Shown: one piece after another, positions 3,697-41,393 of the stretch
Layout: every line of letters begins with the position of its first letter
Numbering within the stretch: the stretch's first letter is position 1
Assembly (NCBI GenBank): GCA_016125385.1
Contig: WGLV01000015.1
Span: 2,555-66,554, forward strand
DNA: 64,000 bases
Direction: 5' to 3'
Source of the DNA: a bacterium
Lineage (GTDB): Bacteria > Hinthialibacterota > Hinthialibacteria > Hinthialibacterales > Hinthialibacteraceae
Made by a program: the position numbers and the translations under genes
The notes under the pieces: generated by a model
What the model saw: the letters and a program-made list of their open reading frames with translations, nothing else
What the model was told of the DNA's origin: nothing
Database searches by the model: none

Positions 3697-3935
3697 TTTT
3701 TTACCTGATTTGATAGATTGATGTGATGAAATGTGGTAGAATTACGGCGAACGTAACAACAGCGTCCTGTAACAGGATAGCGATTACGCTCTGAATTGTG
3801 TAGAAGTATACATTGTTTTGCAGGCTGTGGGGAACGTTTGATCCAAGGCCGCCTCTGGAACCCTCGAGATGTCTCGTTCTTCATCAGGCAACCGGCTTCG
3901 GCCGTTATTTATGAATTATTTGTGTGGATGGTTCA

Positions 3936-11161: not shown

Positions 11162-11626
11162 ATGCAAAGGACCATGCACGAACGGGATAAAATCGTTATC
11201 GGCTGGGTCGAACCGGTTGAATTCGTGGACTGGGGAATTCCCCGAATCCGCGCCAAAGTCGACACCGGGGCGCGCACCAGTTCCCTGCACGTGGAAGATG
11301 TGACCGAGTTGCCCGATGGGCGGGTTCGGTTTCACGTCATCGCCGACCGGAAGCATCCCGAAGCGCGGTATGAAGTCGATGCGCCGCTGGTCAAAAAAGC
11401 GCGCGTGCGATCGAGCACCGGCAAGTACACCATGCGCTGCTTTATCAAAACGCGCGTGAAAGTCGGCGACGTGGTGAAAGAAATTGAATTATCGCTCGCG
11501 CCGCGCGAGAAAATGGTGTTCCGCATGTTACTGGGGCGAACCGCCCTGCACGACGACTTCGTCGTTGACGTATCGATGCGTCATCTGACCTCCCCAAAAA
11601 AGAAACGGAAGCATAAACCCTCGTGA
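11162..11626 (+). CDS. RimK-associated retropepsin-like protease (RimB-like)
   Basis: IGWVE...AKVDTGARTSSLH...MLLGRTAL; GTGA overlap with rimK. Confidence 0.88.
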   Translation: MQRTMHERDKIVIGWVEPVEFVDWGIPRIRAKVDTGARTSSLHVEDVTELPDGRVRFHVIADRKHPEARYEVDAPLVKKARVRSSTGKYTMRCFIKTRVKVGDVVKEIELSLAPREKMVFRMLLGRTALHDDFVVDVSMRHLTSPKKKRKHKPS

Positions 11627-12807
11627 AAATCGCCATATTGTCCCGAAAACGGACTCTTTACAGCACCAGCCGCCTCAAAGAGGCGGCGATCCATCGCGGT
11701 CACCGCGCTCTGGTTCTCGATACGTTGAGGTTCGCCATCGATCTCGAACAGGGATCGCCGCAATTATATTACCGGGGCAAAGCGCTCTCCTCCTATGACG
11801 CCATCATTCCGCGCATCGGCGCGTCGATCACGTTTTACGGGCTTTCCGTCGTGAGACAATTCGAACAGATGGGCGTTTATTCAGCGAACGATTCCGTCGC
11901 CATTTCGCGTTCGCGCGATAAACTGCGCGCCATGCAAACGCTCAGCCGGCACGACATCGGAATCCCCCCGACGGCGTTCGTTCGCGACAAAAAAGACGTA
12001 CTGCCCGCCATCGAGCGAGTGGGCGGCGCGCCGGTCGTTATCAAGGTGCTTGAGGGCGCGCAGGGCGTGGGCGTGATTCTCGCCGAAACCAACAAGATCG
12101 CCGAAGCGATCATCGAAACCATGCACGGCGCCAAACAGAACGTGCTGATCCAGAAATTCATCAAGGAGAGCAGAGGACGCGACATCCGCGCCATCGTGGT
12201 GGGTGACCGGGTGGCGGCGGCCATGCGGCGCCGCGCGGCTGGCGACGAGTTCCGCAGCAACGTTCACCGCGGCGGCAAGACCGAAAAGGTGACGCTTGAC
12301 GCCGAATACGAACGAACCGCGATTCGCGCCGCGCAGATCATCGGGCTGCGCGTGGCGGGGGTCGATATTCTTGAATCGGATGACGGCCCGCAGGTGATGG
12401 AGGTCAATTCGTCGCCAGGGCTGCAGGGCATTGAGTCCACCACCGGCATCGACGTGGCGGGCGCCATCCTCGAAGATATCGAACATCAGGTTCTGTTCCC
12501 CGAGGTCGATCTGAAACAACGCCTTCGGCTCGCGGCGGGCTACGTGATCGCCGAGTTTCCCGTTCATAATATGCCGCGGCTGGAGGGCAAGCCTTTGCGT
12601 GACACGCCGCTGGCTGAGAGCGACGTCCACGTGATACACATCAACCGCAACCGCTCGATCATCCCGAATCCCAAGGGCGACGTGGTGATCCAGACCGGCG
12701 ACTGGTTATTGTGTTACGGCCCTTCGATGGAGTTGAGGCAGCTCACGCCGCCGCCGCAGAAAAAATCGAAAACCCGCAAGCCGTCCGGGAGAAAAGATGA
12801 CTCGTAG
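11623..12807 (+). CDS. rimK: RimK family ATP-grasp alpha-L-glutamate ligase with a C-terminal TrkA-C (RCK_C) domain
   Basis: IIPRIGASITFYG, SRDKLR, QKFIKES...DIR, FRSNVHRGG and EVNSSPG. The C-terminal extension LEGKPLRD...IIPNPKGDVVIQTGDWL is RCK_C-like. Confidence 0.93.
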   Translation: MKIAILSRKRTLYSTSRLKEAAIHRGHRALVLDTLRFAIDLEQGSPQLYYRGKALSSYDAIIPRIGASITFYGLSVVRQFEQMGVYSANDSVAISRSRDKLRAMQTLSRHDIGIPPTAFVRDKKDVLPAIERVGGAPVVIKVLEGAQGVGVILAETNKIAEAIIETMHGAKQNVLIQKFIKESRGRDIRAIVVGDRVAAAMRRRAAGDEFRSNVHRGGKTEKVTLDAEYERTAIRAAQIIGLRVAGVDILESDDGPQVMEVNSSPGLQGIESTTGIDVAGAILEDIEHQVLFPEVDLKQRLRLAAGYVIAEFPVHNMPRLEGKPLRDTPLAESDVHVIHINRNRSIIPNPKGDVVIQTGDWLLCYGPSMELRQLTPPPQKKSKTRKPSGRKDDS

Positions 12808-13879
12808 ACGCCCCATCTCCATCGCGCGTGAAACCATTCACCTGGGCGAGACGCGCGACCTTCATCTGGAGTTCAGCGAATCGTACCTGGGCCGGACGGT
12901 GTCGATTCCAATCAGCGTGATCCGCGGTCCCAAAGAAGGGCCGCGGATTTTTCTAAGCGGCGCGATTCACGGCGATGAACTGACCGGCATCGGAATTATC
13001 CGCGACCTGCTGTTCGACCGCCCGCCTGAATTGCTGAAAGGCACGCTGATCTGCGCGCCCGTGGTTAATATATACGGCCTTGAACATCATTCCCGGTATC
13101 TGCCCGACCGGCGCGATCTGAACCGCTGTTTTCCCGGGCAGCCCGACGGCAGCCTGACCAGCCGGCTGGCCCGGGTGATTCACGACGAAATCGTCATGCA
13201 ATGCGATTACGGGATCGATTTTCACAGCGCGGCGGTGAGACGCACCAACTTTCCCAACGTGCGCGCCGACATGACCAAACCCGAGGTCAAGCGTCTGGCG
13301 CGGGCTTTCGGCTGCGAGCTGATCGTCAACTCCAAAGGCCCCGACGGCTCGATGCGCCGAACCGCCGTCTCGAGCGGCGTACCCACCATCATTCTTGAAG
13401 CGGGCGAGGTCTGGAAGATCGAACCCGCCGTGGTCGAGATCGGCGTGCGCGGCTGTATGAACGTGCTTAAGGCCTTCGGCATGATCGAGGGAGAGCCCGA
13501 GCCGCCGGCGTTTTCCATCACCATCGACCAGACCACCTGGGTGCGCGCCGAGCGCGGCGGGTTTCTCACCTTTCACGCCAAACCGGGCGACCTGGTTTAT
13601 CAGGGGCAGTTTCTCGCGACGAACTACAGCATCTTCGGACGAGAGCGCAACCTGTTGACCTCGCCCGCCTATGGCATCATTCTGGGGATGACCACCATGC
13701 CGGCGGTGCAGCCCGGCGAGCCGGTGTATCATATTGCGACCCTCTCCGAGCGCACTTTCAACCGCATTCGCCGTAAACTGGATTCCGCGCCCGCCGAGAG
13801 CCCGATTCAGAGAATTCGCGAATCGATGTCGTCCCGAGTCTCGATCGAAGAACGAACCGAACCCCCGAGCCAGCCATGA
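12797..13879 (+). CDS. Succinylglutamate desuccinylase/aspartoacylase family (M14-like) protein
   Basis: AIHGDELTG, DLNRCFPG and IDFHS zinc ligands; C-terminal biotinyl-like hybrid region. Confidence 0.9.
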   Translation: MTRRRPISIARETIHLGETRDLHLEFSESYLGRTVSIPISVIRGPKEGPRIFLSGAIHGDELTGIGIIRDLLFDRPPELLKGTLICAPVVNIYGLEHHSRYLPDRRDLNRCFPGQPDGSLTSRLARVIHDEIVMQCDYGIDFHSAAVRRTNFPNVRADMTKPEVKRLARAFGCELIVNSKGPDGSMRRTAVSSGVPTIILEAGEVWKIEPAVVEIGVRGCMNVLKAFGMIEGEPEPPAFSITIDQTTWVRAERGGFLTFHAKPGDLVYQGQFLATNYSIFGRERNLLTSPAYGIILGMTTMPAVQPGEPVYHIATLSERTFNRIRRKLDSAPAESPIQRIRESMSSRVSIEERTEPPSQP

Positions 13880-15174
13880 AACTCCAAACCCTTTGCCCCG
13901 AACCGTTGCCATCCGGAGCGGATCTGACCGAAGAAGTTTTTATTGAAGCCGGCGCCGCGCGCCTCTTGCCCGAGGTGACCGCGCGCCTGCTGGGTGAGCG
14001 CATTTTCTGCGTGGGCGACCCCGACACGCTGCAAGCCGCGTCGGCCTCGATCGATCTCGTCGCGGCGTTCGGTGAACGCCTGACGTTGCACACGCTGCCG
14101 CCGCATCCGAAGTGCAGCGTCGGCCTGATCGATGAACTGGCGCCGGCGGTGGGCGAGTGCGACGGCCTGCTGGCGATCGGCAGCGGAACGGTCAACGACC
14201 TCGTCAAGTGCCTCGCTCGGCGCTTCGAGAAACCCTGCGCCGTGCTGGGGACCGCCGCCAGCATGAACGGTTATACCAGCACCATCGCCGCGCTGATGGA
14301 CGGCGACCTGAAAGTGACCCTGCCCGCCGTGGCGCCGCGCGCGGTCGTGCTCGATCTCGATATTCTATGCGCCGCGCCGGCCGCGATGGCTCCGGCCGGT
14401 CTCGCCGACCTGCTCAGCAAGCCGGTCAGCACCGCCGACTGGTGGATCGGCAGCCAGCTGGGCGAAGCCGGGTATAACGCGCTGCCCGGCCTGATCGTCG
14501 AACACGCCGTCAACCGCGCCATCGCTCACGCCGCCAACCTGCCCCGGCGCGACCCCGACGCGCTCAAAGCGCTCAGCGAGGCGCTGGTGCTCAGTGGAAC
14601 CTCGATGGCGGTGGCGGGCAGCAGCTCGCCCTCAAGCGGCGGCGAACACCTGCTCAGCCATCTGTGGGATATGGAACGCATCGCCGCCCGGCGCGAGCTT
14701 AATCTGCACGGCGCGCAAGTGGGCGTGGCGGTGTGTCTCACCGCCGCGTTGTACCGTTTTCTGATAGAGTTGGAGTCTCCCGCGTTCGCCTCGCCGCTTT
14801 CGTGGGAGGATGAAGAGCGCCGCATCCGCGCCGATCACGGCGCGCTGGCTGAAAGCGTTCTGCGCGAGTCAGCGAAGAAGCAGGCGGGGTGGCCCCAGCG
14901 CCGCGAGACACTGAAACGCGAGTGGCCGAGGCTGCGCGACCACCTCGATTCGATGGAAATCCCCACGCCCGCGCGCGTGCGCGAGATTCTGATTCAGTCG
15001 GGCGCGCCGCACACGCTGGCCGGGCTGGGCCTGACGCGGGACGACGCCCGCCGTGCGCTGCTCATCGCGCGCGACATCCGCTCGCGCCATACCGTGCTCG
15101 ACCTCGCTTACGAGACGGGGTTCTTCCCCGGCGGCGTTGACGCCGTACTCACCGCCAGTGGCGTCTGCGGCTGA
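13876..15174 (+). CDS. sn-glycerol-1-phosphate dehydrogenase family (EgsA/AraM-like)
   Basis: IGSGTVNDLVK, TAASMNGYTS, GLADLLSK, SSGGEHLLSHLWDM and LHGAQVG. Confidence 0.85.
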   Translation: MKLQTLCPEPLPSGADLTEEVFIEAGAARLLPEVTARLLGERIFCVGDPDTLQAASASIDLVAAFGERLTLHTLPPHPKCSVGLIDELAPAVGECDGLLAIGSGTVNDLVKCLARRFEKPCAVLGTAASMNGYTSTIAALMDGDLKVTLPAVAPRAVVLDLDILCAAPAAMAPAGLADLLSKPVSTADWWIGSQLGEAGYNALPGLIVEHAVNRAIAHAANLPRRDPDALKALSEALVLSGTSMAVAGSSSPSSGGEHLLSHLWDMERIAARRELNLHGAQVGVAVCLTAALYRFLIELESPAFASPLSWEDEERRIRADHGALAESVLRESAKKQAGWPQRRETLKREWPRLRDHLDSMEIPTPARVREILIQSGAPHTLAGLGLTRDDARRALLIARDIRSRHTVLDLAYETGFFPGGVDAVLTASGVCG

Positions 15175-16144: not shown

Positions 16145-17572
16145 CTACATAAAGAATCGGTAGTCGTATACGTCATCTACAATATCTGGTGTGCCTTTTA
16201 CGACGTTGGCAAAACGCTGCGAGTACACCAGCGTCACAGGCAACGTCTTATAAAGTGTGTTATTGTTCCAGTCACACTTGGTCAGCGAATATACGCTCGA
16301 ACAGGTATCATGCCAACCGCCCGCCCCTGACCAGCGTCTAAGTAAAATGGGGTTCGGTGTAGGCTTGAAGACAGCCTCCTTAAAGACGGGTCGGTTCGCC
16401 TGCTGAGCGTTCACGCCAGACACACTGCCTTGTGTCCAGAGCAGGCATTCAGTCACAGTGAGTGGAAGATAGCTGCCGCGATCAAGTGGGTAACCAGCCG
16501 GCCAGGCCTTCTCGCCCCGTCGAGGCGGCGGATCAACCTTTAGACCATGCCACTCCGTACCGCGAATGATCTGTATGAGTTCAACCTCTGTCTTTGAGCC
16601 AAAAGCATCCAGCGCACCCTGGATTTCCTCTTCGGTAAAGCGGGTCGATTTATGAACGAAGATTTTGCGGGGCACATGCGCGTAGTGACCGTTCTGGTAC
16701 AGCAGCAGGCTGCGCGAGAGTACCGACATCATTTCCTGATAGCTTAAGTAAGGATTCCCTTTTCTGTCCGTCTCAAACTCTCGCGTATCATAGGCGACAA
16801 ATTCAAAACCTGTTCCGTCCGGATCGAAGATCTGGCTGCAACACGTGCTGTACTCCATACCATCGCCAAGCTTGCGCATCGCGTAGCTAAGTCCAATATA
16901 GGCTTCATCGCGATCAAAATTCGCAAGCTTCCATGGGATGCCTCCTGCCTTGGCATAGAGTGCGACGGTAATACCCCACATCGCCTGAGCACGACAGGTT
17001 CGCGAAAAGACTGTTTCGTTCATGATCTGTACGGGAATGCCGAGCGGCGCGATCAGCGCTTTTAGCCGGTCGTGGAGATTAAACCCCTCGTACGTGAAGG
17101 CATTTTTCCACTCCGGTGGAAGATAGATCATGAGCACATCGAAAGAGCTACGTTTAGCACGCGTAGCACCAATGGTGTGGACGAGCGCACGCACAAGCCC
17201 TTCGCCATCCTGCAACTGCGCAAGGCGTGCACAATCATCAGACGTCGAAAACCTCTGCGCATCATTCGCCGGTACGAGAGGAACACGAAAGACGTTCTGA
17301 AATCCTGGATACTCGAAATAGTAATTTGGTGCTTCCCTCACTTTTGCCTTTCGCTGCATTTCGCCGACGATGGACTCTATCCACTTCATGCGATCAGCGG
17401 GTGCCAGGTAGGCAAGCCTCACCTGTGCGGGAAAACCAAGTTCAATACTGTATGGTCCGTTTGCGATCAGGCCGCGCAACGGGTGCGTGTCGGTCTTCTT
17501 GCCAGCAAACAAGAGTGCTGGTTCAGGGAGCATGCCGTGACCGGGTAGTTCATCGTGCCGCTGCGCGTTCAT
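16145..17572 (-). CDS. Short prokaryotic Argonaute (MID-PIWI, catalytically inactive)
   Basis: 475 aa. MID residues LHDRLKA...[31 protein letters not shown] lacking the catalytic Asp, and LTKCDWNN...LPVTL. ATGA-type overlap with the SIR2 gene. Confidence 0.93.
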
Positions 17573-19365
17573 GCGGACGCCCTTCTGCTGAACGCCGTAC
17601 GGGTGGAAACAGTAAAGGCAGCCGGATAGTCCGTATCGGCTCCATAGGTGACGGTAATCGGTGTGCTCTGACCGATGGGACCGATGAGAATTTCAATCCA
17701 GGCATTCAGGATAGCGTAGGACTTTTTGTTGTATCGTTGCCGCTTGCGTTTTCGCAGGAAGTCTTGAGCATCTTCACGCTTCTTTAGCGGCTTGATCCAG
17801 ACATCGGGTTCAAGCAGGAGCCACAAGACACCGGCACGCTCCTCGAGCCTGAGTCTTAAACACTCTGACCAGTGCGTATCCGGCAACTCGCGAACGGTTC
17901 CGCAAATCGGTTCGGGATTACCACAAAATCCAACAGCCTTTTTGAGTGACGCGAAGCGCTCATCGTCAGCCTGGCGGAAGTCAACTACGGCAAAACAGGT
18001 CTTGCCCTTTTTGCGTAAGAGAACAGGTTTGTCGTGACAGAGCGCTTCGGCGATGCCATGCTCGTAGAATGATTTTAGATATGTTGATTCGGCGATCTCG
18101 GCGACCGGCTCGGCGAACTCACGCACGCCAATATCGTTCTCTGTCAGTCCCTCCAGACTTCTCTTAACCTGTGTGGATTCTCCCCAGAAGACGATGCCGT
18201 CCTGATAGGAAATGACAACATCCGGCTGCTTTTCGCGTACAATAGCAAACACATCGGCAACTGGAACGCCGGGTGCAGGAAGAATGCCACACTGCCGGGG
18301 CGCATCTACGATTTCGAGGGCGTTCGTTCGCAGGATTGGATAGGATCTGCCAGGCTCGGGTAACGGAATCGATACCGGATGCGCCTGTGCTGAGCGTACT
18401 TTGTCATCCAGAACCTGCGGCTTATCAGGAATCTGCCGCCAGACCTTGTAGAGCATCAGATCAAACGTCCCGGTTTCTACTATGTAGGCCTTAATGCCTC
18501 TTAACCGTGCCTCCTCAATGAACGTAACGACGGCAGGTGCGGCACTGGACGCTTGCGGGACTGTCCACCAAATACCGTGCGGGAATGGATTAGGCTGTGC
18601 TAGCGCCATTTCAAGCATGGCCATAACGTTACTGTCCCGGCCGCTATAGCCTGCGACAATCAGGCCATAACGGCTGGCCGCAGCAACAAAACATTCCTGA
18701 ATCTTCTCATCGTTACTGAGCAGATCCTTGGAAAGGTTCTTGATCTTCTGGTATCGAAAGTCCCCGTGAATTTTCGCGTATACCGGAAACCGCTCCGCAT
18801 TGAGCGCTTCAAGTGCGGCATATGATCCTTCGAGATTAAAAGGGGTCAAGTTTTTTCCGGCGACGGCGGCATAGGCATCCTCAAGTACATCATCAAAGTT
18901 TGTAGTGAAGACAAGACGCGACCGCCCCATTTCGAGAAGCGAAGCAAGCGCACGAGGCCCGATCGTCAGCGTCACCTTTTCAGGAGACATTTGGTCCTGA
19001 ATATAGGATTGCTGCGCAGCGTAGTCCTCGCCGAACATCAATTCAAAATAGTAGGAATATTCCTCATTACTCCAAACTTTCGGGCAGCCTTTTCCAGTGA
19101 AGTAGCTTTGAATCTTCGCCTTGATGGCATGATTACTGACGTTGTGAGCCTGAACGTCCTGATTCTCTTTGGCGCAGTAGTACTGCCGCTTTAAATCCCA
19201 GATCAGATCCGCCGCAGCCGGCAAACCAGATGAACGTGACGTACCCGCACCGAGAAACCACATGAGCTGTGGCGCATTCTGGACGAAGTGACGCAGAAAC
19301 TCCTTTTCGTCGATCTGTAAGTGCACGCTGCTCAATCTGCTAACTGCCTCCCAAGATCCATCCAA
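17569..19365 (-). CDS. SIR2-APAZ NADase effector of a SPARSA system
   Basis: [28 protein letters not shown] and GYSGRD, then a C-terminal APAZ-like region. The true start may be the GTG at about 19326. Confidence 0.93.
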
Positions 19366-23996: not shown

Positions 23997-25367
23997 ATGA
24001 ACGAAGAAGCCCCTACCATATTGATTACGGATCGGGATCAACTGGCCGGCTGGTCGCTGCAGAACGAGCTGATGGCGGCTGGATACCGCGTCAGCACCGC
24101 CGCATCGGGCGGCGAGGTGATTCAGCTCTCGCGTAACAACCCCCCCGGCATGATTGTGTATGACGCCCAGACGCCCGATGTAAACGGGATGGATCTGTTG
24201 AATACGCTCGCTCAAATGAATGTGCAAAGCGCCGTGATTCTCGTCTCGGACCAGGATGACGCGCGCAGCGCGGTCGAAGCGCTGAAAGCCGGCGCCGTCG
24301 ATTATGTTCCGCGGCCGTTCGAAATGGGCGATCTGGTCCAGCGGATCGATAAAGCGATGGCGTCCCGCCGCATCGACGGGGCGGTCTACGGCGTCCATTC
24401 CGAACCGGTGGTTCATCACGGGCTTGATAATGTGGTGGCGGTGGGCCCCGCCATGCAGAAAGTAATCGGCATCGCCACCCAGATCGCCCGTCAAAGCAAC
24501 AGCACCGTTCTGTTGCGTGGCGAAACCGGCGTCGGCAAAGACCTGATGGCGCGCGCCATCCACCGGCTAAGCCCACGGTCCGAACAACCTTTCGTCGAAA
24601 TCAACTGCCCATCGTTCCCCAGCCCTCTCCTTGAAAGCGAATTGTTCGGCCATGAAAAAGGCGCGTACACCGACGCGCGCACGCAGAAAAAGGGGCTGCT
24701 TGAAGTTGCGCATCTCGGCACAGTGTTTCTCAACGAGATCGGCGAGATCGAGCCGAACATTCAGGCCAAATTGCTTCAGTTCCTCGAACAGAAGGTGTTT
24801 CGCCGCATCGGTTCAACGCAGGAGCGCCTGGTTGACGTGCGTGTCATCGCGGCGACCAACCAGCCCTTGGAACGGGCGGTGGAGGAGGGGCGTTTCCGGC
24901 AGGATTTATACTTCCGCCTGAACGTGATTCCCATCGTGGTTCCGCCGTTGCGCGAGCGCAAGGAAGACGTCGTCGCCCTGGTCGATCACTTTCTGCGCAT
25001 CTTCCGTTCCGAATTCTCCAGGCCGGACCTGACCATAGAGCCGGAGGCGCTGCGGCGGCTGAAAGAGTACAACTGGCCGGGCAACGTTCGTGAACTGAAG
25101 AACGTACTTGAGCGGATGGCGTTGTTACAGAAAAATAACGTCATGCTGGAAGAACATCTGCCGGAAGAGATTCTCCACGCGGCCCGGCCGCAAGAAGAAG
25201 AGGCCTCCCCCCTGGTTGAACAGGAGAAGGTGCTGATTCTCAAGACGATGAAGGAATCGGGCTGGAACCAGAGCCTGGCCGCCCGGCGTTTGAAGATTAC
25301 TCGCGACACCCTGCGCTACCGGATGAAGAAGTACAACATCCGCTCCCCCCTTCACACTGCATACTGA
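23997..25367 (+). CDS. Sigma54-dependent response regulator (REC-AAA+-Fis HTH), atypical receiver
   Basis: GETGVGK Walker A, ESELFGHEKGAYTDA, FRQDLYFRLNV, WPGNVREL and the HTH WNQSLAARRLKITRDTLRYRM. Confidence 0.93.
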   Translation: MNEEAPTILITDRDQLAGWSLQNELMAAGYRVSTAASGGEVIQLSRNNPPGMIVYDAQTPDVNGMDLLNTLAQMNVQSAVILVSDQDDARSAVEALKAGAVDYVPRPFEMGDLVQRIDKAMASRRIDGAVYGVHSEPVVHHGLDNVVAVGPAMQKVIGIATQIARQSNSTVLLRGETGVGKDLMARAIHRLSPRSEQPFVEINCPSFPSPLLESELFGHEKGAYTDARTQKKGLLEVAHLGTVFLNEIGEIEPNIQAKLLQFLEQKVFRRIGSTQERLVDVRVIAATNQPLERAVEEGRFRQDLYFRLNVIPIVVPPLRERKEDVVALVDHFLRIFRSEFSRPDLTIEPEALRRLKEYNWPGNVRELKNVLERMALLQKNNVMLEEHLPEEILHAARPQEEEASPLVEQEKVLILKTMKESGWNQSLAARRLKITRDTLRYRMKKYNIRSPLHTAY

Positions 25368-25506: not shown

Positions 25507-25548
25507 ACCCAATTGGGTTATTTAATCCATATTGATTAATTTAATCAA
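25507..25548. promoter_or_regulatory. Two palindromes, candidate enhancer (UAS) sites
   Basis: ACCCAATTGGGT (25507-25518) and TTGATTAA-T-TTAATCAA (25532-25548), about 250-290 bp upstream of the sigma54 promoter in AT-rich DNA. Confidence 0.4.
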
Positions 25549-25791
25549 ATTCATAAACCAAGCAAATAAGGCTATTTAATTTATAAATGCATTTGTTTTT
25601 ATAAGCTAGACTGATAGCGGTTTTTTGTATTCAAAACTAAAGTGATTCATAGCTAATCAGGCATAAAGTGGGTATTTTTTTAACTTTCCAAGCAGTGATG
25701 AAATCCATTGAATTGCAAAGTGTTTTATATATATAAGTCTCATCAAAACGACTGATTCACTAAGTTGACTTTTTTGGGTGATTTGAGACGG

Positions 25792-25808
25792 TCGGTACGC
25801 CCTTTGCT
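25792..25808 (+). promoter_or_regulatory. Putative sigma54 (-24/-12) promoter of the decaheme cytochrome gene
   Basis: TCGGTACGCCCTTTGCT: GG at 25794-95 and GC at 25806-07, exact GG-N10-GC spacing, close to the TGGCACG-N4-TTGC consensus. Confidence 0.68.
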
Positions 25809-25864
25809 CTTTTAGGAGAACGTCAGCTTGTTTCATCATCTTATTGCAAGGAGTGTTTGTACCA

Positions 25865-27868
25865 ATGAAGCATTTCAACTGTGTGAAGACCGTCTTGTTG
25901 CTCGCTTTGTTGGCGTTGCCTATCGGGATGGGATGGAGCGCCGATGGCCTCGTCGTCAAAATCGAAAAAGTCACCATTAACACCGATCTGAAGGCCGAAG
26001 TGACCTTCTCCATGACGGATGAAACCGGCGAACCGCTCGGAATCACCGGCGTGACCGAAGGCGGCGACGTTTCCTCGCCCCGTTTCATCCTGAGCTATCT
26101 CGAAGGAACGGATTACCACTGCTACATCACTCGTACGCAGACCGTGCCTGAAGGCTATCCCAACGCGGGCGTGAGCGCCGATCAGGCTACGACCGACAGC
26201 GGTGGAACCTTCGCCGATCTGGGTGGCGGGCGTTATACCTATACGTTCAAAACTGCGGTTCCGGCTGATTACAAAGGCGGATTGACCCATACCGTCAGCG
26301 GCCAGATTTCCCGCCCCGTCGGCGACAATACCTATTATGCGAACCCGGTTCATCATTTCATCCCCAATGGCGGTCAGGTGACCCAGTTGCTGCGCGTTTC
26401 CACTACGGAAACCTGCAACAAGTGCCACACCAGCATGGGCTTCCACGGCGGCAGCCGCAAAGAAATCACCTACTGCCAGACCTGCCACACCGCTGAAAAC
26501 CTTGACCCCGACACCGGCAACAGCGTCGAACTCGGCACGATGATCCATAAGATCCACATGGGCGAACATCTGCCCAGCGTGCAGGCGGGCGTGCCCTACG
26601 AAATCGTCGGCCACAACCAGACCCTGGTTGATTTTTCCGAAATCGCGTTCCCCCAGGCGCCGAATGACTGCACCGTGTGCCATACCGGTGAAGAAGGAAG
26701 CATCTACAAGACCGCTCCCAGCATGAAGGGCTGCGGATCGTGTCACGACGATATTGACTTCGCCAACGGCGTCGGCCATATCAAACAGACCGATAACAGC
26801 ATGTGCGCACTGTGCCACACGCCGGAAGGCTCCGGGTTGTCCATTGTCGACGCGCACGTCGTCCCGGCCAAATCGCCCAAGTTGAAGGGCCTGATCGCTG
26901 AAATCGTCAGCGTCTCCAACACCGCGCCCGGCCAGAACCCGACCATCGTGTACAAATTACATGAAGCCGATGGCACCCCGGTCGCGCCCAGCAGCCTCTC
27001 CAGCAACAACGTGAACTTCGCGGGCCCGACGAAGGAATACACCTCTTATATTCGCGAAGACAGCAAGGGCGCCGTTCAGCAAGGCGACGCCTGGAGCTAC
27101 ACCTTCACCAACCCGATTCCAGCCAACGCGGTTGGAACCTATGCCTTCGCCATTGAAGGCCGCCGCACCGTCACTCTGACCACCATCAGCGGTGAGGTGA
27201 GCGTTACCGAAGGCCTGATGAACCCGATCGCGCTCGCGAAGGTGACCGACGCGCAGCCTGTGGCTCGCCGCGAGATCATCGATCAGAGCAAGTGCAACGG
27301 CTGCCACGGCAGCTTGGGGCTCCACGGCGGTCAGCGTACCAACGTTGAGTTCTGTGTGTTCTGCCACAACCCGAAAGAAAGCGATATCGCGGTACGACCT
27401 GACGGCGTGGGCGGCGGTGTTCCGATTAACTTCTCGTACATGATTCACAAGATTCACCGCGGTTCAGAACTGACCCAGGATTACACGGTGTACGGTTATC
27501 GCAGCTCGGTTCATAACTACAACCACATCGAGTTCCCGGGTATTGAAAACTCCTGCACCATCTGCCATACCTCGAATCCGACGCTGCCGCTTCCCAGCGA
27601 AGTCGCTGCGATTGACTTCACTGACAAAGACGGCAAGCAGGTTCACATTCCGCCGACGACCGCGATCTGCACCTCGTGCCACGACACGCAGGAAGTCGCC
27701 GATCACGCCGCGATGTACAATGCGGGCGGCCAGGAAACCTGCTTTGCTTGCCACGGCCCTGGCGGCTTCAAAGATATCGCGTTGACCCACAAGCTGGACG
27801 TCTTCCTCAACGCGGAAGTCACCTTCGGCGGACAGGGTACCCGCGTCAGCGATTGGCTCATGCAGTAA
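25865..27868 (+). CDS. Decaheme c-type cytochrome, OmcA/MtrC family
   Basis: Ten CxxCH motifs (CNKCH, CQTCH, CTVCH, CGSCH, CALCH, CNGCH, CVFCH, CTICH, CTSCH, CFACH) in two groups of five separated by a beta domain, plus HKIHMG/HKIHRG. AAGGAG RBS and a Sec signal peptide. Confidence 0.93.
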   Translation: MKHFNCVKTVLLLALLALPIGMGWSADGLVVKIEKVTINTDLKAEVTFSMTDETGEPLGITGVTEGGDVSSPRFILSYLEGTDYHCYITRTQTVPEGYPNAGVSADQATTDSGGTFADLGGGRYTYTFKTAVPADYKGGLTHTVSGQISRPVGDNTYYANPVHHFIPNGGQVTQLLRVSTTETCNKCHTSMGFHGGSRKEITYCQTCHTAENLDPDTGNSVELGTMIHKIHMGEHLPSVQAGVPYEIVGHNQTLVDFSEIAFPQAPNDCTVCHTGEEGSIYKTAPSMKGCGSCHDDIDFANGVGHIKQTDNSMCALCHTPEGSGLSIVDAHVVPAKSPKLKGLIAEIVSVSNTAPGQNPTIVYKLHEADGTPVAPSSLSSNNVNFAGPTKEYTSYIREDSKGAVQQGDAWSYTFTNPIPANAVGTYAFAIEGRRTVTLTTISGEVSVTEGLMNPIALAKVTDAQPVARREIIDQSKCNGCHGSLGLHGGQRTNVEFCVFCHNPKESDIAVRPDGVGGGVPINFSYMIHKIHRGSELTQDYTVYGYRSSVHNYNHIEFPGIENSCTICHTSNPTLPLPSEVAAIDFTDKDGKQVHIPPTTAICTSCHDTQEVADHAAMYNAGGQETCFACHGPGGFKDIALTHKLDVFLNAEVTFGGQGTRVSDWLMQ

Positions 27869-27906
27869 TCTTCAGCGCGCTCAAGCGCGTGAAAGATCGA
27901 AGTTCG

Positions 27907-27936
27907 AGGGGAGCGGTTTTTGCCGCTCCCCTTTTT
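27907..27936 (+). terminator. Intrinsic terminator
   Basis: AGGGGAGCGG-TTTTTG-CCGCTCCCCT followed by a T tract. Confidence 0.82.
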
Positions 27937-28344
27937 GTTTGACGCCAAAAATCGTGTTCAACACACTCGCTGATCAACCGCGCCCAAACACCAATGGATA
28001 ATCACCATATTAAAAGTCGACTGGATTTTCATTCATGAATACTAATTGTGTGAAAAATGTCATCTATGAAGTGTGAATTAAAGGGATGAATTTGGTTTTT
28101 TGAAAATGCAGTCAATGCGTGATTATTTCTGCGGTGAACCTGAAGAATATTCTAGTAATAAATGCGTTTTTGAATCACTTGTTCGATTGTATGTTGTATT
28201 TTTTGCAATGTGTTGAATCGAATCTTTTAATATTTGGAAAATAATTGAATTATTTCTGACTGTATGTTTGAATTTTGTTATCAGTATTATAGGGGTGAAC
28301 CGTGTTCGCCCGGCTGCATCATCAATTTTCAGGAGGTTTGTGTT

Positions 28345-30525
28345 ATGTTAAAGAAGTTTGGCTCCGCCATGCTGATATCAGCGTTGGCAGCCGGTTCGGT
28401 TCTGGCTCAGACGGAGAAGATACCCGTCGAGAGTTTCGAGAGCATCGACATCGCGATGACGGGTGGATCGGTTACCGGTTCTCTGGTGGGCGACGTGGCG
28501 TTTGACGACGTCCCCGAGATCGATGGACCGATGGCGCTCTACGTGGAGTATGACGCGACCCCCAGCACTTACTGGTCACAAGCCGCGATCACTCTGCCTG
28601 AACCGCATGACCTGACCGGAATCACGGAATTGCGCTTTTCATTGTATTTTCTTCCGAGCAGCACCACCAACACGAACGGCGAAGTTCCGGTTCGTACCCA
28701 CCTCCCGCCGGATGACGGCTATTCGATGGATTACATCCACCCGGGCGAATGGTACGAAATCACCCTGAAAATCGATCCGTACGTCGCGGAGACGGAGATG
28801 CCAACCTTCGATCTGTTCCGCATGGTTATCAGCGCGGGGCTCGAAGGCAGCGGCGCGTTTTACGTTGACAACATCTACGCGTTGCGCCCCACCAATCCCG
28901 TCGCGCTGGAAGTCGTTCCTCTGTACGGTTTCAACTCCACCAACCCGGGCGCTTCCACGCCTCTGGGCTGGACTCGGGACCAGGCCAGCGTGGATCCTTC
29001 TCTTGGCGCGGATCTGATGACGCCTTCAGAAGGTACGAACTGCATGCTGTTGCCTGTCACGGGCGGTGCGGTTCAGGCGGTTCAGACGCTCCATGCCAAA
29101 GACGATATTGACTGGACGCGAGTCCGGGCGATCTATTTTGACGCCACCGTTACCGATGATTTCTCGACATGGTGCACCGTTCGCCCCTATATCAAATCGT
29201 CTTCCGGCGGTACGACGGTTCCCGAAGAGTTCCGTGGAATCTCCGGCAACAAGGGCTCGTGGAGAACGGTCAGCTACTGGCTCGATCTCGGGCCGCACAT
29301 GAATTCGATCATCGGCGACGGCGACTTCGCGATCGGCATCCGCAACGATAACGGCGGCGAAGCCAATTCTCCCGATGCACAGAATATTCTGATCGATAAC
29401 TTCCGCGTGGGCATGGTTTCTTCCTTCTGCCTGGCGGTTCGTGATTTTGGTCAGAACGCTTCGATTTATGAAGGTTCTTCCGGCTCATATCCGGTGACGG
29501 TCAGTCTGACGATGAAAGGCGACGCCGCGCCGGTTGAAATGGTCGAAATGCTGCCTGAAGGCTGGTCGGCCACCGATATCAGCAACGGCGGCGTTCTGGC
29601 CGATGGAACGATCACCTGGAACCTGGACGTCTCGCCTGACGCGGTTCAGACGCTCAGCTACACCGCGGTATCCCCGGCTTCAATCTCCAAAAAACCCGTC
29701 TGGTCGGGTTCGGTGAACGGTGAAACCGTGTTTGGTTCCGCCGGCCCTGCGTATTTCGACAAGACCGTGACGGATACGCTGGTCGAAGCGCCCCTGCTGT
29801 CAAACACCGTGACTCTCGACGGCGTTATCAGCGCGGGTGAATACGATGGCGCGAATGTGTATACCTTCAACCATGACACTTCGGACGGCAACAAGGCTCC
29901 GGGCGTTCACCTCTCCGGCAAAGAGTACCCCGCCGCCGTTGAAAACATGACGTTCCATGTTTTCCATGACGCGGATTACATCTATGTCGCCGCTGACGTG
30001 GTTGACCCCGACCTCAGCTTCGAGTTCAACGACATCCAGTTCTGGAACGCCGACAGCGCCGAAGTGTATTTCGATGGCAATCTGTCGCGCAGCAACGCGA
30101 TCGAAAGCGAGCGCCATGGTTGCCAGTTGACCGTGGTTGGCGACGGCCGTCTCGCGGCGTCGAACAACAAATATTTCCCCACCATGCTTGACGCGGCCGG
30201 CGGTGGAAAATACATGGAAGACGGGCGCGACGGCGCGGATCAGCCTGTCTACTGGGCGTGTGGCGCCAAAGCCAGCGCCACTGGTTACGTGGTGGAATAC
30301 CGCGTTGCCAAGGCGCAGATCCTGGATCCGGCCAACCGGACTCAGATCGGCTTTGAAGTGATGGTTAACAGCAGTGAAGCGGCCAGCGCGGCCACCCGCA
30401 CGGGTAAGTGGGGCTATCACTGCAGCGACGCCTCCGGCGTTCCGTTCGAAGCGTACAACAACGAAAGCGGTTGGACGCTGATGAACCTGCTGGGCACGTC
30501 GGTAAACGATTGGAGCGTATTCTAG
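28345..30525 (+). CDS. Secreted multi-domain carbohydrate-binding protein (two jelly-roll CBM-like domains, an Ig-like domain, and a CBM9/DOMON-like domain)
   Basis: AGGAGG RBS and signal peptide. Two domains end in FYVDNI and ILIDNF. The last domain has LDGVISAGEY...YIYVAADVVD...DSAEVYFD...IGFEVMVN. Confidence 0.7.
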   Translation: MLKKFGSAMLISALAAGSVLAQTEKIPVESFESIDIAMTGGSVTGSLVGDVAFDDVPEIDGPMALYVEYDATPSTYWSQAAITLPEPHDLTGITELRFSLYFLPSSTTNTNGEVPVRTHLPPDDGYSMDYIHPGEWYEITLKIDPYVAETEMPTFDLFRMVISAGLEGSGAFYVDNIYALRPTNPVALEVVPLYGFNSTNPGASTPLGWTRDQASVDPSLGADLMTPSEGTNCMLLPVTGGAVQAVQTLHAKDDIDWTRVRAIYFDATVTDDFSTWCTVRPYIKSSSGGTTVPEEFRGISGNKGSWRTVSYWLDLGPHMNSIIGDGDFAIGIRNDNGGEANSPDAQNILIDNFRVGMVSSFCLAVRDFGQNASIYEGSSGSYPVTVSLTMKGDAAPVEMVEMLPEGWSATDISNGGVLADGTITWNLDVSPDAVQTLSYTAVSPASISKKPVWSGSVNGETVFGSAGPAYFDKTVTDTLVEAPLLSNTVTLDGVISAGEYDGANVYTFNHDTSDGNKAPGVHLSGKEYPAAVENMTFHVFHDADYIYVAADVVDPDLSFEFNDIQFWNADSAEVYFDGNLSRSNAIESERHGCQLTVVGDGRLAASNNKYFPTMLDAAGGGKYMEDGRDGADQPVYWACGAKASATGYVVEYRVAKAQILDPANRTQIGFEVMVNSSEAASAATRTGKWGYHCSDASGVPFEAYNNESGWTLMNLLGTSVNDWSVF

Positions 30526-40058: not shown

Positions 40059-41393
40059 ATGCGATCGTCTCCTCATTTTCCATTCTCGCCCAGGCGGTTC
40101 CCATTTTATTATGGATGGGTGATTCTCTTCGCCTGCACGGTCGGCGTCGTGATGAGCATCCCCGGCCAGACGATGGGCGTCAGCGTGTTCACCGATTACC
40201 TGATCGATGCGCTGGGCGTTTCGCGCGTTCAGTTGAGCGCGGCCTATATGGCGGGCACCATCGCCAGCAGCCTGATGTTGCCCTGGAGCGGCGACTGGTT
40301 CGACCGATGGGGCGCCCGGATGATGGTGGTGTTTTCCGCCTCCATGCTGGGGGTGACGCTGTTGGTGTTGTGTCAGTGCGATCGCATCGCGCACGGCGTG
40401 GCGTGGCTGACCGGGCCGGGGCCCTGGGCTGCTTTGGCCGTGATGGCGATTGGTTTTACCCTGCTGCGATTTTCGGGGCAGGGGCTGTTGAGTATGACGT
40501 CGCGCGCCATGCTGGGCAAATGGTTTAACCGGTATCGCGGCTTCGCTTCCGGACTGAACGGCGTAATCGTGACGTTTTTGTTTTCTTTCGCTCCGCTGGG
40601 GCTGAACGGGTTGGTGAACTCGTTTGGTTGGCGCGGCGCCTGGGTCTGGATGGCCCTCGCATCATTCGCAATGGCGGCGCTGGGGTGGTTGCTCTACCGG
40701 GATAATCCGGAAGAGTGCGGTCTGACGATGGATGGACTGATTGAAGAGGATGAAGCCGAACATACCGGCGTCAGAGCGCATCACATTTATAAAGAATACA
40801 CTCGCGGCGAAGCGATTCGAACGTTTTCATTCTGGGTTTTTAACGCGGGGCTTGGCGCGTATGCGTTGATCGTGACCGAGTTGACGTTTCACATCGTTTC
40901 AATCGGTGAGGATTTCGGTCTCGATCGAGACCATGCGCTGGCGATTTTTCTGCCGATGGCGGTGGTGAGCATCGCGTGTAATTTCATCTTCGGATGGGTG
41001 TGCGACAAGGTGAAGTTGAAATACACCCTGGTCGTGATGATGGTGACGATGCTGGTTGGAGTCGGCGCGACGCCGTATCTGCAAACGCCAGCGGGCTGGT
41101 GGATCATGGTGTTCGGTCTGGGCGCGACGGGCGGAATTTTTTCTCCCCTGCTGACGGTGGTCTGGCCTGCGTTTTTCGGACGACGGCATCTGGGCGCGAT
41201 CAGCGGAATCAGTATGTCCGTGATCGTGTTTTCCAGCGCGATCGGCCCGTACCTGTTTGGATTATCGAAAGTCTGGTTCGGCGATTATCAGGCGGGTGTG
41301 TGGGCGTCGATGGCGATTCCCGCCGTGACGTTGCTTCTCGCTTTCACGGCGGAAAACCCGCAGGATCGCTGGCGCGCATTCGAAAGCCGTTAA
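40059..41393 (+). CDS. MFS transporter
   Basis: About 12 TM helices, FYYGWVI start and the GDWFDRWGAR MFS loop motif. Confidence 0.9.
   Translation: MRSSPHFPFSPRRFPFYYGWVILFACTVGVVMSIPGQTMGVSVFTDYLIDALGVSRVQLSAAYMAGTIASSLMLPWSGDWFDRWGARMMVVFSASMLGVTLLVLCQCDRIAHGVAWLTGPGPWAALAVMAIGFTLLRFSGQGLLSMTSRAMLGKWFNRYRGFASGLNGVIVTFLFSFAPLGLNGLVNSFGWRGAWVWMALASFAMAALGWLLYRDNPEECGLTMDGLIEEDEAEHTGVRAHHIYKEYTRGEAIRTFSFWVFNAGLGAYALIVTELTFHIVSIGEDFGLDRDHALAIFLPMAVVSIACNFIFGWVCDKVKLKYTLVVMMVTMLVGVGATPYLQTPAGWWIMVFGLGATGGIFSPLLTVVWPAFFGRRHLGAISGISMSVIVFSSAIGPYLFGLSKVWFGDYQAGVWASMAIPAVTLLLAFTAENPQDRWRAFESR

What the first reader, a model, noticed from the sequence alone, without database searches (positions are those of the whole stretch)
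25865..27868. Orphan MtrC/OmcA-type decaheme cytochrome with no lipobox and no mtrAB
Seen: 10 CxxCH in MtrC-like 5+5 organisation, a signal peptide ending ...GWSA|DG with no lipobox Cys at the cleavage site, its own promoter and terminator, and no MtrA-like cytochrome or MtrB-like barrel within the window. Established: Shewanella MtrC/OmcA are lipoproteins that work on the MtrAB conduit. Inference: extracellular electron transfer in this lineage uses a different anchoring route, plausibly the C-terminal tail, and an unknown or distant conduit.
Basis: partly seen in the sequence, partly recalled or inferred. Interest (0 to 1): 0.72.

Follow-up and report, generated by a model that had tools for sequence, protein, structure and literature searches.

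The report
Unanchored MtrC-like decahaem cytochrome with shared tail
This is a genuine MtrC/OmcA-type ten-haem cytochrome from an uncultured sugar-degrading bacterium; it has no lipid anchor but carries a short C-terminal tag shared with unrelated exported proteins, and its membrane-crossing partner, seen in relatives, is a non-Mtr porin-cytochrome module encoded elsewhere.

Summary
ORF 25865-27868 encodes a 667-aa protein with ten CxxCH motifs (5+5). It scores 432 bits on TIGR03507 (OmcA/MtrC; cutoff 209). Its AF2 model (pLDDT 91.5) matches OmcA, MtrC, MtrF and UndA at TM 0.58-0.68. It has a non-lipoprotein signal peptide and a 12-bp-stem terminator. No other multihaem gene and no conduit homologue lies in the 64 kb.

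New findings:
1. The promoter is sigma-54 type (CGGTACGCCCTTTGCT), preserved in orthologous loci. An orthologous NtrC-type regulator is adjacent, and a TGGGT-N6-ACCCA palindrome lies upstream.
2. The lineage is Hinthialibacterota/OLB16, often labelled "Omnitrophica".
3. Relatives place the orthologue beside a non-Mtr module: a 22-strand barrel, an 11-haem lipoprotein, a tetrahaem and a 9-haem cytochrome. In two MAGs the decahaem and this module sit on different contigs. "Orphan" therefore most likely means an unlinked conduit.
4. The last 10 residues (GTRVSDWLMQ) are disordered in the model. They match a tag, T-x-[VI]-x-x-W-x-hydrophobic, found at the C-terminus of 20 of 217 ORFs in lineage loci and 0 of 369 elsewhere. 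Bearers include the next gene. The tag's function is untested.

The cytochrome is a new variant of a known family. The tag may be an undescribed sorting signal.

The parts
23997..25367 (+). Sigma-54-dependent response regulator (REC + AAA+ Sigma54_activat + HTH_8). It is the likely activator of the cytochrome gene. Its sigma-54 contact loop reads GAYTDA rather than GAFTGA.
   Evidence: Pfam Sigma54_activat 6e-64, Response_reg, HTH_8. Orthologues of 54-59% identity sit next to the orthologous cytochrome in L037, L039 and L001.
25513..25530 (+). Candidate enhancer (UAS) palindrome TTGGGTTATTTAATCCAT, a degenerate copy of TTGGGT-N6-ACCCAA, 280 nt upstream of the promoter. A second weaker copy lies at 25565-25585.
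   Evidence: It is the only match with up to 2 mismatches in the 64 kb, but 1.6 are expected by chance. The exact palindrome TGGGT-N6-ACCCA occurs in only 4 of 43 fetched loci. Five of its six sites lie 99-297 nt upstream of the orthologous promoter, and the sixth lies in front of the L001 haem-cluster operon. Direct and inverted repeats were found.
25793..25808 (+). Sigma-54 type -24/-12 promoter element CGGTACGCCCTTTGCT (GG-N10-GC).
   Evidence: It matches 10 of 12 consensus positions and starts 72 nt before the ATG. Near-identical elements lie at equivalent positions in L037 (CGGTACGGGCTTTGCA), L038, L039, L001 and L012.
25865..27868 (+). OmcA/MtrC-family decahaem c-type cytochrome, 667 aa, about 69 kDa mature without haems.
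   Evidence: TIGR03507 431.8 bits against a cutoff of 209.3. PF22113, two matched stretches. PDB phmmer: MtrF 1e-29, OmcA 3e-25, MtrC 1e-15. AF2 pLDDT 91.5. Foldseek OmcA/UndA/MtrC/MtrF TM 0.58-0.68.
25865..25942 (+). Sec signal peptide of SPI type (MKHFNCVKTVLLLALLALPIGMGWSA|DG), with no lipobox.
   Evidence: Sequence. The ending is conserved in the 25 closest homologues. No hydrophobic segment occurs in the mature protein (maximum Kyte-Doolittle 0.87).
26414..26818 (+). First pentahaem domain (domain II): CNKCH, CQTCH, CTVCH, CGSCH, CALCH.
   Evidence: Conserved His 194, 228, 231, 305 and 331 are candidate distal ligands.
27293..27754 (+). Second pentahaem domain (domain IV): CNGCH, CVFCH, CTICH, CTSCH, CFACH.
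   Evidence: Invariant His 487, 528, 531, 614 and 642.
27794..27865 (+). C-terminal extension (LDVFLNAEVTFGGQGTRVSDWLMQ) that the acidobacterial and other more distant homologues lack. A short hairpin is followed by the core tag.
   Evidence: The TIGR03507 match ends at residue 642. The extension is present in all 25 closest homologues and absent from hit 26 onward. Among the 150 best 50%-identity representatives, only two have alignments that reach into the tail (P0193 and the fragment P0272).
27836..27865 (+). Core C-terminal tag GTRVSDWLMQ (consensus G/P-T-x-V/I-x-x-W-x-hydrophobic-x, then 0-6 residues to the end).
   Evidence: pLDDT below 50 for residues 657-667 in an otherwise confident model. 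W is invariant and T nearly so in the alignment of 30 tails from two unrelated families. Census: 20 of 217 ORFs against 0 of 369.
27906..27941 (+). Intrinsic terminator: 12-bp stem (8 GC pairs), 4-nt loop, T-run.
   Evidence: sequence.
28345..30525 (+). Neighbouring gene: a 726-aa SPI-exported protein with a C-terminal CBM9-like domain, ending in the same tag (GTSVNDWSVF, 30493-30522).
   Evidence: Pfam CBM9_1 2e-13. In 12 of 13 other homologues the sequence ends ...G-T-x-V-x-[DE]-W-x-L-[FHY]; the exception, P0130, is a partial sequence. The nearest named relatives are Ca. Omnitrophica and Ca. Hinthialibacter.

Best explanation
The gene encodes a functional OmcA/MtrC-family decahaem cytochrome of a Hinthialibacterota (OLB16) polysaccharide degrader. 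It is transcribed alone, from a sigma-54 promoter that the adjacent NtrC-type response regulator switches on by binding an upstream palindrome, and it ends at a strong terminator. The protein is exported by Sec, cleaved by signal peptidase I, loaded with ten bis-His haems, and is not lipidated. It most likely acts as the outermost electron-transfer module of a non-Mtr porin-cytochrome conduit: a 22-strand outer-membrane barrel, an 11-haem lipoprotein, a tetrahaem and a 9-haem cytochrome, fed by NapC/NirT-type and cytochrome-b quinol dehydrogenases. In this genome that conduit would be encoded outside the window. The free 10-residue C-terminal tag is a lineage-specific envelope sorting or attachment signal that stands in for the lipid anchor of Shewanella MtrC. 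Shown here: family membership, fold, signal type, transcription-unit elements and their conservation, the conduit in relatives and its unlinked state in two MAGs, and the tag's enrichment and disorder. Inferred: surface location, the tag's role, partnership with that conduit in this organism, and the electron acceptor.
For: Family and fold. Ten CxxCH plus ten conserved His (nine invariant, one in at least 90% of sequences). SPI signal conserved across the clade. Sigma-54 element conserved in six loci, regulator orthologues adjacent in four, palindrome restricted to these upstream regions. Conduit module next to the orthologue in L033, L001, L002 and L040. The barrel family is conserved and AF2 predicts about 22 strands (pLDDT 82.6) that match large OM barrels. 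The same MAG carries the decahaem and the module on different contigs in GCA_040755155.1 and GCA_016934335.1. The latter MAG also holds the orthologue of the window's CBM9 gene. In a neighbour-joining tree, orphan and cluster-linked genes are interspersed within one clade. Tag. For non-bait ORFs the count is 8 of 205 against 0 of 369, p = 2e-4. The lineage does make lipoprotein cytochromes: the 11-haem proteins have LASC|D and WGGC|D lipoboxes, so the missing lipobox here is specific to this protein.
Against: No conduit gene can be shown for this organism, because only 64 kb of a 90-kb contig is visible. Location outside the cell is not testable here. Two tag bearers are Peripla_BP_6 solute-binding proteins, which are usually periplasmic, so the tag could mean retention in the envelope rather than surface display. 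The regulator's sigma-54 contact loop is GAYTDA, not GAFTGA. The window's palindrome copy is degenerate and not significant on its own. The tag census rests on about 294 kb chosen around bait genes.
Confidence: 0.6

Rival explanations
1. The decahaem stays in the periplasm as an electron carrier or store. The C-terminal tag is then a periplasmic retention or docking signal, for example to the inner face of the outer membrane or to peptidoglycan.
For: SPI signal with no anchor. No type II secretion genes were seen in the window. The tag also occurs on Peripla_BP_6/ANF_receptor proteins.
Against: To my knowledge every characterised member of the family is extracellular (MtrC, OmcA, MtrF, UndA). 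In relatives the gene sits in an operon with a barrel and an 11-haem lipoprotein, in the position of the outer component. CBM9 proteins carrying the tag would be expected to meet polysaccharide outside the cell.
Confidence: 0.17
2. The decahaem works without a dedicated conduit. It would be a secreted redox protein tied to glycan breakdown, for example passing electrons to or from the neighbouring CBM9/DOMON-like protein or oxidative enzymes, or acting as an extracellular peroxide or metal reductase.
For: A CBM9-domain gene lies next to the decahaem both here and in L037. The surrounding genes encode sulfatase, GH2, GH172 and an apiosidase-like enzyme. Orphan loci are frequent in the clade.
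Against: The two CBM9 proteins share only the CBM9 domain, at 23-26% identity. Loci around two orthologues of the window's CBM9 gene have no cytochrome within 10 kb. MAGs with an orphan decahaem still encode the conduit elsewhere.
Confidence: 0.12
3. A canonical mtrAB pair elsewhere in the genome serves this protein, as in Shewanella and the Bryobacterales.
For: Acidobacterial homologues of 37-39% identity are followed by a 10-haem MtrA-like gene. MtrCAB is known in Acidobacteriia (PMC8805035).
Against: None of the tail-clade loci has an MtrA/DmsE-family cytochrome: the 11-haem protein scores 20.9 bits on TIGR03508 against a cutoff of 192. None has an MtrB_PioB barrel: the barrel has no Pfam or NCBIfam hit, and MtrB is not among its top 50 structural matches.
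Confidence: 0.04
4. The gene is a stranded remnant of a broken-up cluster and is no longer functional.
For: It is separated from any conduit gene. The window's enhancer palindrome is degenerate.
Against: The ORF is intact. All ten CxxCH motifs and the conserved distal His residues are retained. The promoter, Shine-Dalgarno, terminator and regulator are intact and conserved. The orphan arrangement recurs in at least six related loci.
Confidence: 0.03

Closest known systems
Shewanella MtrC / OmcA / MtrF / UndA (outer-membrane decahaem and undecahaem cytochromes; PDB 4LM8, 4LMH, 3PMQ, 3UCP)
   Same: Same family by HMM (TIGR03507). Same four-domain layout of beta-barrel, pentahaem, beta-barrel, pentahaem, with ten CxxCH and conserved distal His. 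Predicted fold matches at TM 0.58-0.68.
   Different: About 18-21% identity. No lipobox. No CX8C disulfide in domain III; the only non-haem Cys of the mature protein is C86 in domain I. An extra 24-residue C-terminal extension with the tag. No mtrAB. Sigma-54 control.
MtrCAB-type clusters of Acidobacteriia/Bryobacterales (Group 5 of Baker et al. 2022, PMC8805035; 'EET2' of bioRxiv 10.64898/2026.05.27.727921)
   Same: These are the next-closest sequence relatives, at 37-46% identity. They also lack a convincing lipobox.
   Different: They are followed by a 10-haem MtrA-like gene. They end right after the last distal His and have no tag.
Geobacter-type porin-cytochrome (Pcc) conduits such as OmaB-OmbB-OmcB
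   Same: The module found in relatives has the same logic: an OM barrel of about 20-22 strands, a lipoprotein multihaem and periplasmic multihaems.
   Different: No detectable sequence relationship was seen: the barrel has no Pfam or NCBIfam hit. Here an MtrC-family decahaem is added as a further component. The comparison with Geobacter proteins is from memory, not tested.
Short C-terminal sorting signals (LPXTG/sortase, PEP-CTERM/exosortase, GlyGly-CTERM/rhombosortase, MYXO-CTERM/myxosortase; bioRxiv 10.1101/2023.06.07.544157, PMC11980579) and the T9SS C-terminal domain
   Same: A short conserved motif at the extreme C-terminus of many unrelated signal-peptide proteins, restricted to one lineage.
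   Different: There is no transmembrane helix or basic cluster after the motif; only 3-9 residues follow the W. It is far too short for a T9SS domain. No NCBIfam or Pfam model matches it. No processing enzyme has been identified.

Membership tests
OmcA/MtrC family decahaem c-type cytochrome (TIGR03507) | Full-length HMM score above the curated cutoff | tested here: met
   431.8 bits against 209.3, covering profile positions 7-672 of 672.
OmcA/MtrC family decahaem c-type cytochrome (TIGR03507) | Ten CxxCH motifs in two pentahaem domains, with a distal His for each haem | tested here: met
   Ten motifs in a 5+5 layout. Ten conserved non-motif His: H194, 228, 231, 331, 487, 528, 531, 614 and 642 are invariant, and H305 is present in at least 90% of sequences. 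Actual haem ligation is not testable here.
OmcA/MtrC family decahaem c-type cytochrome (TIGR03507) | Four-domain fold (beta-barrel I, pentahaem II, beta-barrel III, pentahaem IV) | tested here: met
   AF2 pLDDT 91.5, pTM 0.85. The top 16 Foldseek hits are all OmcA, UndA, MtrC or MtrF (ranks 1-15 full-length, TM 0.58-0.68; rank 16 is the MtrC domains I-II fragment).
Shewanella-type MtrC/OmcA (surface lipoprotein) | Lipoprotein signal peptide with a lipobox Cys | tested here: not met
   No Cys lies between the hydrophobic core and residue 86. The same holds in the 25 closest homologues. SignalP was not run.
Shewanella-type MtrC/OmcA (surface lipoprotein) | Conserved CX8C disulfide in domain III (feature recalled from published work on the Shewanella proteins) | tested here: not met
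   There is no non-haem Cys in domain III.
Shewanella-type MtrC/OmcA (surface lipoprotein) | Export to the cell surface by type II secretion | not testable with these tools
   No T2SS genes were found in the window. Pseudopilin-like genes lie near the orthologue in L037.
MtrCAB conduit | Co-encoded MtrA (DmsE-family decahaem, TIGR03508) and MtrB (PF11854) | tested here: not met
   None in the window. In relatives the partner cytochrome scores 20.9 bits on TIGR03508 and the barrel has no family hit.
Porin-cytochrome conduit (generic) | OM beta-barrel co-encoded with periplasmic and outer multihaem cytochromes | tested here: inconclusive
   Not present in the window. Present next to the orthologue in four related loci, and on other contigs in two MAGs. 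The barrel is confirmed by AF2 and Foldseek.
Sigma-54 / bEBP-controlled gene | GG-N10-GC -24/-12 element, an upstream enhancer site and a cognate AAA+ activator | tested here: met
   Element at 25793-25808, conserved in six loci. Activator adjacent with orthologues in three other loci. Palindrome. Caveat: the contact loop is GAYTDA, and no rpoN gene was seen in the window.
Exosortase/sortase-type C-terminal sorting domains | Signature motif followed by a transmembrane helix and a basic cluster | tested here: not met
   Only 3 residues follow the W here and 3-9 in relatives. The maximum hydropathy of the mature protein is 0.87.
T9SS C-terminal domain | A beta-sandwich domain of about 70-100 aa (TIGR04183 and related models) | tested here: not met
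   No NCBIfam or Pfam hit. The extension is 24 aa, and its last 11 residues are disordered in the model.

The most novel reading that the evidence does not exclude
The C-terminal motif G/P-T-x-V/I-x-x-W-x-hydrophobic-x is a previously undescribed class of envelope sorting or attachment signal in Hinthialibacterota/OLB16, with no transmembrane helix and no known sortase. It directs a set of Sec-exported proteins to the cell surface or tethers them there. That set includes MtrC-type and 9-haem cytochromes, CBM9 proteins and solute-binding proteins. On this reading, an extracellular electron-transfer cytochrome is anchored without a lipid.
Probability: 0.35. Interest if true: 0.7.

Novelty: new variant of a known kind. 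Interest (0 to 1): 0.5.

Why it matters
MtrC-type cytochromes are the textbook outer component of bacterial electron transfer to minerals and electrodes, and current models rest on lipid-anchored Shewanella proteins docked on MtrAB. This locus shows a branch of the family, in an uncultured phylum of sugar degraders, wired differently. It has no lipid anchor, it is under sigma-54 two-component control, and it is paired with a different porin-cytochrome module that is often unlinked. Two practical points follow. Annotation pipelines that call "metal reduction" from an mtrC hit (as was done for OLB16 MAGs: 10.1101/2021.05.06.442964, PMC8478452) or that require mtrCAB synteny (PMC8805035) will mis-score such genomes. 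The shared C-terminal tag also gives a concrete, testable handle on how this phylum places proteins on its surface.

Tried and rejected
1. Sigma-70 promoter scan. It found nothing on the + strand upstream of the gene, so I looked for other promoter types.
2. A database search with a profile of the tag alone. I rejected it before running. The shared core is about 10 residues, which I estimate carries roughly 20 bits. That cannot reach significance against 1.8 billion proteins, and the flanks are family-specific.
3. MAFFT alignment of upstream regions. It failed to register the short conserved elements, so I located them by pattern instead.
4. Rfam scan of both intergenic regions. No match.
5. 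A functional link between the cytochrome and the CBM9 neighbour. A CBM9 gene also lies beside the orthologue in L037, but the two proteins share only the domain. Loci of two CBM9 orthologues have no cytochrome. I treated this as weak.
6. The idea that orphan and cluster-linked genes are separate paralogue lines. A neighbour-joining tree intersperses them.
7. The barrel as a divergent MtrB. There is no PF11854 hit, and MtrB is absent from the top 50 structural matches.
8. The tag as an OMP beta-signal. Its hydrophobic residues do not alternate, the bearers are soluble-domain proteins, and W lies 3-9 residues from the end.
9. The tag as a T1SS signal. All bearers have N-terminal signal peptides.
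Full report
OBSERVATION. The ORF at 25865-27868 (+) is real and is as described. ATG 25865 is preceded by AAGGAG at 25848-25853; the TTG at 25844 lies upstream of that Shine-Dalgarno and is unlikely to be the start. The 667-aa product has exactly ten CxxCH motifs, five between residues 184 and 318 and five between 477 and 630. The only other cysteines are C6, in the n-region of the signal peptide, and C86. The N-terminus, MKHFNCVKTVLLLALLALPIGMGWSA|DG, has a basic n-region, a hydrophobic core and a small-residue c-region, with no Cys after the core. There is therefore no lipobox. I could not run SignalP. The mature protein has no hydrophobic segment (maximum 19-residue hydropathy 0.87). A 12-bp-stem terminator with a T-run lies at 27906-27941. 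No other ORF in the 64 kb has more than one CxxCH.

IDENTITY. The protein scores 431.8 bits on NCBIfam TIGR03507, the OmcA/MtrC family decahaem cytochrome model (cutoff 209.3), over the whole profile. It also matches Pfam PF22113 (MtrC/MtrF domains II/IV) in two stretches. Against PDB sequences it hits MtrF (1e-29), OmcA (3e-25), MtrC (about 1e-15) and UndA. An AlphaFold2 model built from a 60-sequence alignment is confident (pLDDT 91.5, pTM 0.85) and shows two beta-domains alternating with two haem domains. All of the top 16 Foldseek hits in the PDB are OmcA, UndA, MtrC or MtrF. The 15 full-length hits have TM 0.58-0.68, and rank 16 is the domains I-II fragment of MtrC. Ten non-motif histidines are conserved across the alignment, nine invariant and one in at least 90% of sequences, enough for bis-His ligation of ten haems. 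Family membership is therefore established at the sequence and fold level. Two features of the Shewanella proteins are absent: the lipobox and the domain-III CX8C disulfide.

ORGANISM. The window carries genes for a sulfatase, GH2, GH172/DUF2961, an apiosidase-like enzyme, a 3-keto-disaccharide hydrolase and an FAD_oxidored protein, among housekeeping genes. The closest cytochrome homologues (45-55% identity) and the homologues of the downstream gene (61-67%) come from MAGs named Candidatus Omnitrophica/Omnitrophota or Candidatus Hinthialibacter. OLB16, now Hinthialibacterota, has been misfiled as 'Omnitrophica' (PMC10066038). Ca. Hinthialibacter is described as a sulfatase-rich polysaccharide degrader (PMC9324843). 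The window most likely comes from that phylum. OLB16 MAGs have already been scored as 'metal reducers' by HMM pipelines (10.1101/2021.05.06.442964; PMC8478452), so the presence of an mtrC-like gene in this lineage is not new.

THE FAMILY AT LARGE. An exhaustive search of 1.84 billion 50%-identity representatives gave 2426 relatives at E<=1e-3 and 680 at E<=1e-30. Only one full-length representative (P0193) and one fragment (P0272) align into the last 20 residues of the query. All others stop at or before residue 646. By a deliberately loose lipobox pattern, about half of the 134 best representatives that start with Met lack a lipobox. None of the 120 best hits from the first search has a convincing one. 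A missing lipobox is therefore common in this family outside the Proteobacteria.

TRANSCRIPTION UNIT. The sigma-70 scan found nothing upstream on the + strand. A -24/-12 element, CGGTACGCCCTTTGCT, starts 72 nt before the ATG. Near-identical elements sit at the same distance in three related loci and a little further upstream in two more. They are L037 (CGGTACGGGCTTTGCA, 66 nt), L038 (63 nt), L039 (64 nt), L001 (92 nt) and L012 (136 nt). The gene immediately upstream, 23997-25367, encodes a REC-AAA+-HTH sigma-54 activator. Orthologues of it (54-59% identical to the window protein, 60-71% to one another) lie beside the orthologous cytochrome in L037, L039 and L001. The upstream regions also share an 18-bp palindrome, TTGGGT-N6-ACCCAA. 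The exact core TGGGT-N6-ACCCA occurs in only 4 of the 43 loci fetched. Five of its six sites lie 99-297 nt upstream of these promoters, and the sixth lies in front of the haem-cluster operon of L001. The window has one degenerate copy at 25513-25530. It is the only match with up to 2 mismatches in 64 kb but is not significant on its own. One caveat is that the activator's sigma-54 contact loop is GAYTDA rather than GAFTGA, in the window protein and in the L037 orthologue.

THE MISSING CONDUIT. The window has no MtrA- or MtrB-like gene and no homologue of any conduit protein from relatives. In the acidobacterial relatives, the MtrC-like gene is followed by a 10-haem MtrA-like gene, as reported for Acidobacteriia (PMC8805035). 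In the clade to which the window protein belongs, four loci (L033, L001, L002, L040) place it beside a different module. That module comprises a 9-haem protein of about 600-640 aa, a tetrahaem of about 190 aa, a 460-520-aa protein ending ...GVNF, and an 11-haem protein of about 315-390 aa. Several loci add NapC/NirT-type and cytochrome-b/multihaem genes. The 460-aa protein has no Pfam or NCBIfam hit. It forms a family of 42 proteins, mostly from 'Omnitrophota' MAGs. AlphaFold2 predicts a beta-barrel of about 22 strands (pLDDT 82.6) that matches large outer-membrane barrels but not MtrB in the top 50. The 11-haem protein scores only 20.9 bits on the DmsE/MtrA model (cutoff 192). In L041 and L042 it carries a lipobox (LASC|D, WGGC|D). 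This is a porin-cytochrome conduit that is not Mtr.

Two MAGs carry both parts unlinked. In GCA_040755155.1 the decahaem sits with its regulator pair on contig 127 (L039), and the module, without a decahaem, sits on contig 108 (L041). In GCA_016934335.1 the decahaem is on contig 49 (L043) and the module on contig 225 (L042). The second MAG also holds the orthologue of the window's CBM9 gene. In a neighbour-joining tree, orphan and cluster-linked genes are interspersed within one clade. The simplest reading is that the window shows the unlinked arrangement, with the conduit outside the 64 kb. I cannot show this for this organism.

THE C-TERMINAL TAIL. All 25 closest homologues extend about 24 residues beyond the last distal His, in the form ...FLNV-x-E...G-x-x-T-x-V-x-x-W-x-hydrophobic-x. 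More distant homologues stop at the His. In the model, residues 646-654 form a small hairpin and the last 11 residues have pLDDT below 50. The downstream gene (28345-30525, an SPI-exported protein with a CBM9-like domain) ends GTSVNDWSVF. Of its 13 other homologues, 12 end in the same way; the exception, P0130, is a partial sequence. An alignment of 30 tails from the two families shares only the core: T at W-5, V/I at W-3, an invariant W and a hydrophobic residue at W+2.

In about 294 kb from 14 loci of this lineage, 20 of 217 ORFs end with the core motif. In 494 kb from other lineages the count is 0 of 369. Leaving out the 12 bait genes gives 8 of 205 against 0 of 369 (p = 2e-4). An earlier calculation on a 144-ORF subset, using the rate of internal matches, predicted only about 0.3 chance hits among those ORFs. 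The non-bait bearers are two CBM9 proteins, two 9-haem cytochromes of the conduit module, two Peripla_BP_6 proteins and two proteins without a family. All those with a complete N-terminus have SPI-type signal peptides. Other exported enzymes in the window, such as the sulfatase and GH2, lack the tag.

The motif has no following transmembrane helix, is far too short for a T9SS domain, and does not have the alternating pattern of an OMP beta-signal. It matches no Pfam or NCBIfam model, and I found no description of it in the literature searches. It behaves like a lineage-specific sorting or attachment tag. Its destination, surface or periplasm, is open, and the solute-binding bearers argue for caution.

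MECHANISM AND VERDICT. My best reading is a sigma-54/two-component-controlled, Sec/SPI-exported, non-lipidated MtrC-type decahaem. It serves as the outer module of an unlinked, non-Mtr porin-cytochrome conduit and is positioned by the C-terminal tag (confidence about 0.6). The rivals are a periplasmic role (about 0.17), a conduit-independent secreted redox protein linked to glycan metabolism (about 0.12), a canonical MtrAB pair elsewhere (about 0.04) and a dead remnant (about 0.03). Two corrections apply: the missing lipobox is ordinary for the wider family, and 'orphan' is local. The cytochrome is a new variant of a known family. The tag is the part that may be new and deserves follow-up.

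Noticed in passing
window 16145-19365 (-): Two overlapping genes form a short prokaryotic Argonaute defence system of the SPARSA type: SIR2-APAZ (598 aa, PADLOC Aga_SIR2-PNTD1-PNTD2 1.7e-186) and a short pAgo (475 aa, pAgo_I 4e-178). They lie in a low-GC stretch (0.49-0.53) flanked by 0.62-0.66, which suggests an acquired island.
   Followed up: partly
window 54395-55555 (-); L012 5860-7626 (+): A WD40-like beta-propeller protein ends ...TAGVNDYGMYE, and an L012 protein ends ...TAITDFQLY. These may be Y and F variants of the W tag. They were not counted in the census.
   Followed up: no
L041 11397-12344; L042 4175-5116: The 11-haem cytochromes of the non-Mtr conduit module carry lipoboxes (LLLASC|D, ILWGGC|D). 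The lipid-anchored component in this lineage is therefore the 11-haem protein, not the MtrC-like one.
   Followed up: partly
L001 2-17 and 6104-6119: The palindrome TGGGT-N6-ACCCA lies upstream of the decahaem gene and also in front of the 9-haem/tetrahaem/barrel/11-haem operon. This suggests one regulon for both.
   Followed up: partly
window 23997-25367 (+): The sigma-54 activator has GAYTDA in place of the canonical GAFTGA loop, as does its L037 orthologue. Unlike L037 and L039, the window has no histidine kinase gene next to it; the upstream gene is a DUF5060/apiosidase-like glycosidase.
   Followed up: no
window 3924-4613 (+): A bactofilin domain is fused to a glycogen-binding CBM48/AMPK1_CBM domain, an unusual pairing.
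   Followed up: no
window 41390-45757 (-): A 1455-aa hybrid sensor kinase with Reg_prop beta-propeller repeats, PAS domains, HisKA/HATPase and a receiver, the type that often regulates glycan-utilisation genes.
   Followed up: no
window 11623-15174 (+): A high-GC (0.62-0.66) run of three genes: RimK-type ATP-grasp ligase with a TrkA_C domain, a succinylglutamate desuccinylase/aspartoacylase-like protein, and an Fe-ADH_2 protein. Function was not pursued.
   Followed up: no
L041 16952-19983 (-): In GCA_040755155.1 the conduit contig also carries a second sigma-54 response regulator with a Protoglobin-PAS histidine kinase about 5 kb from the module. This hints at oxygen or redox sensing for the pathway.
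   Followed up: no
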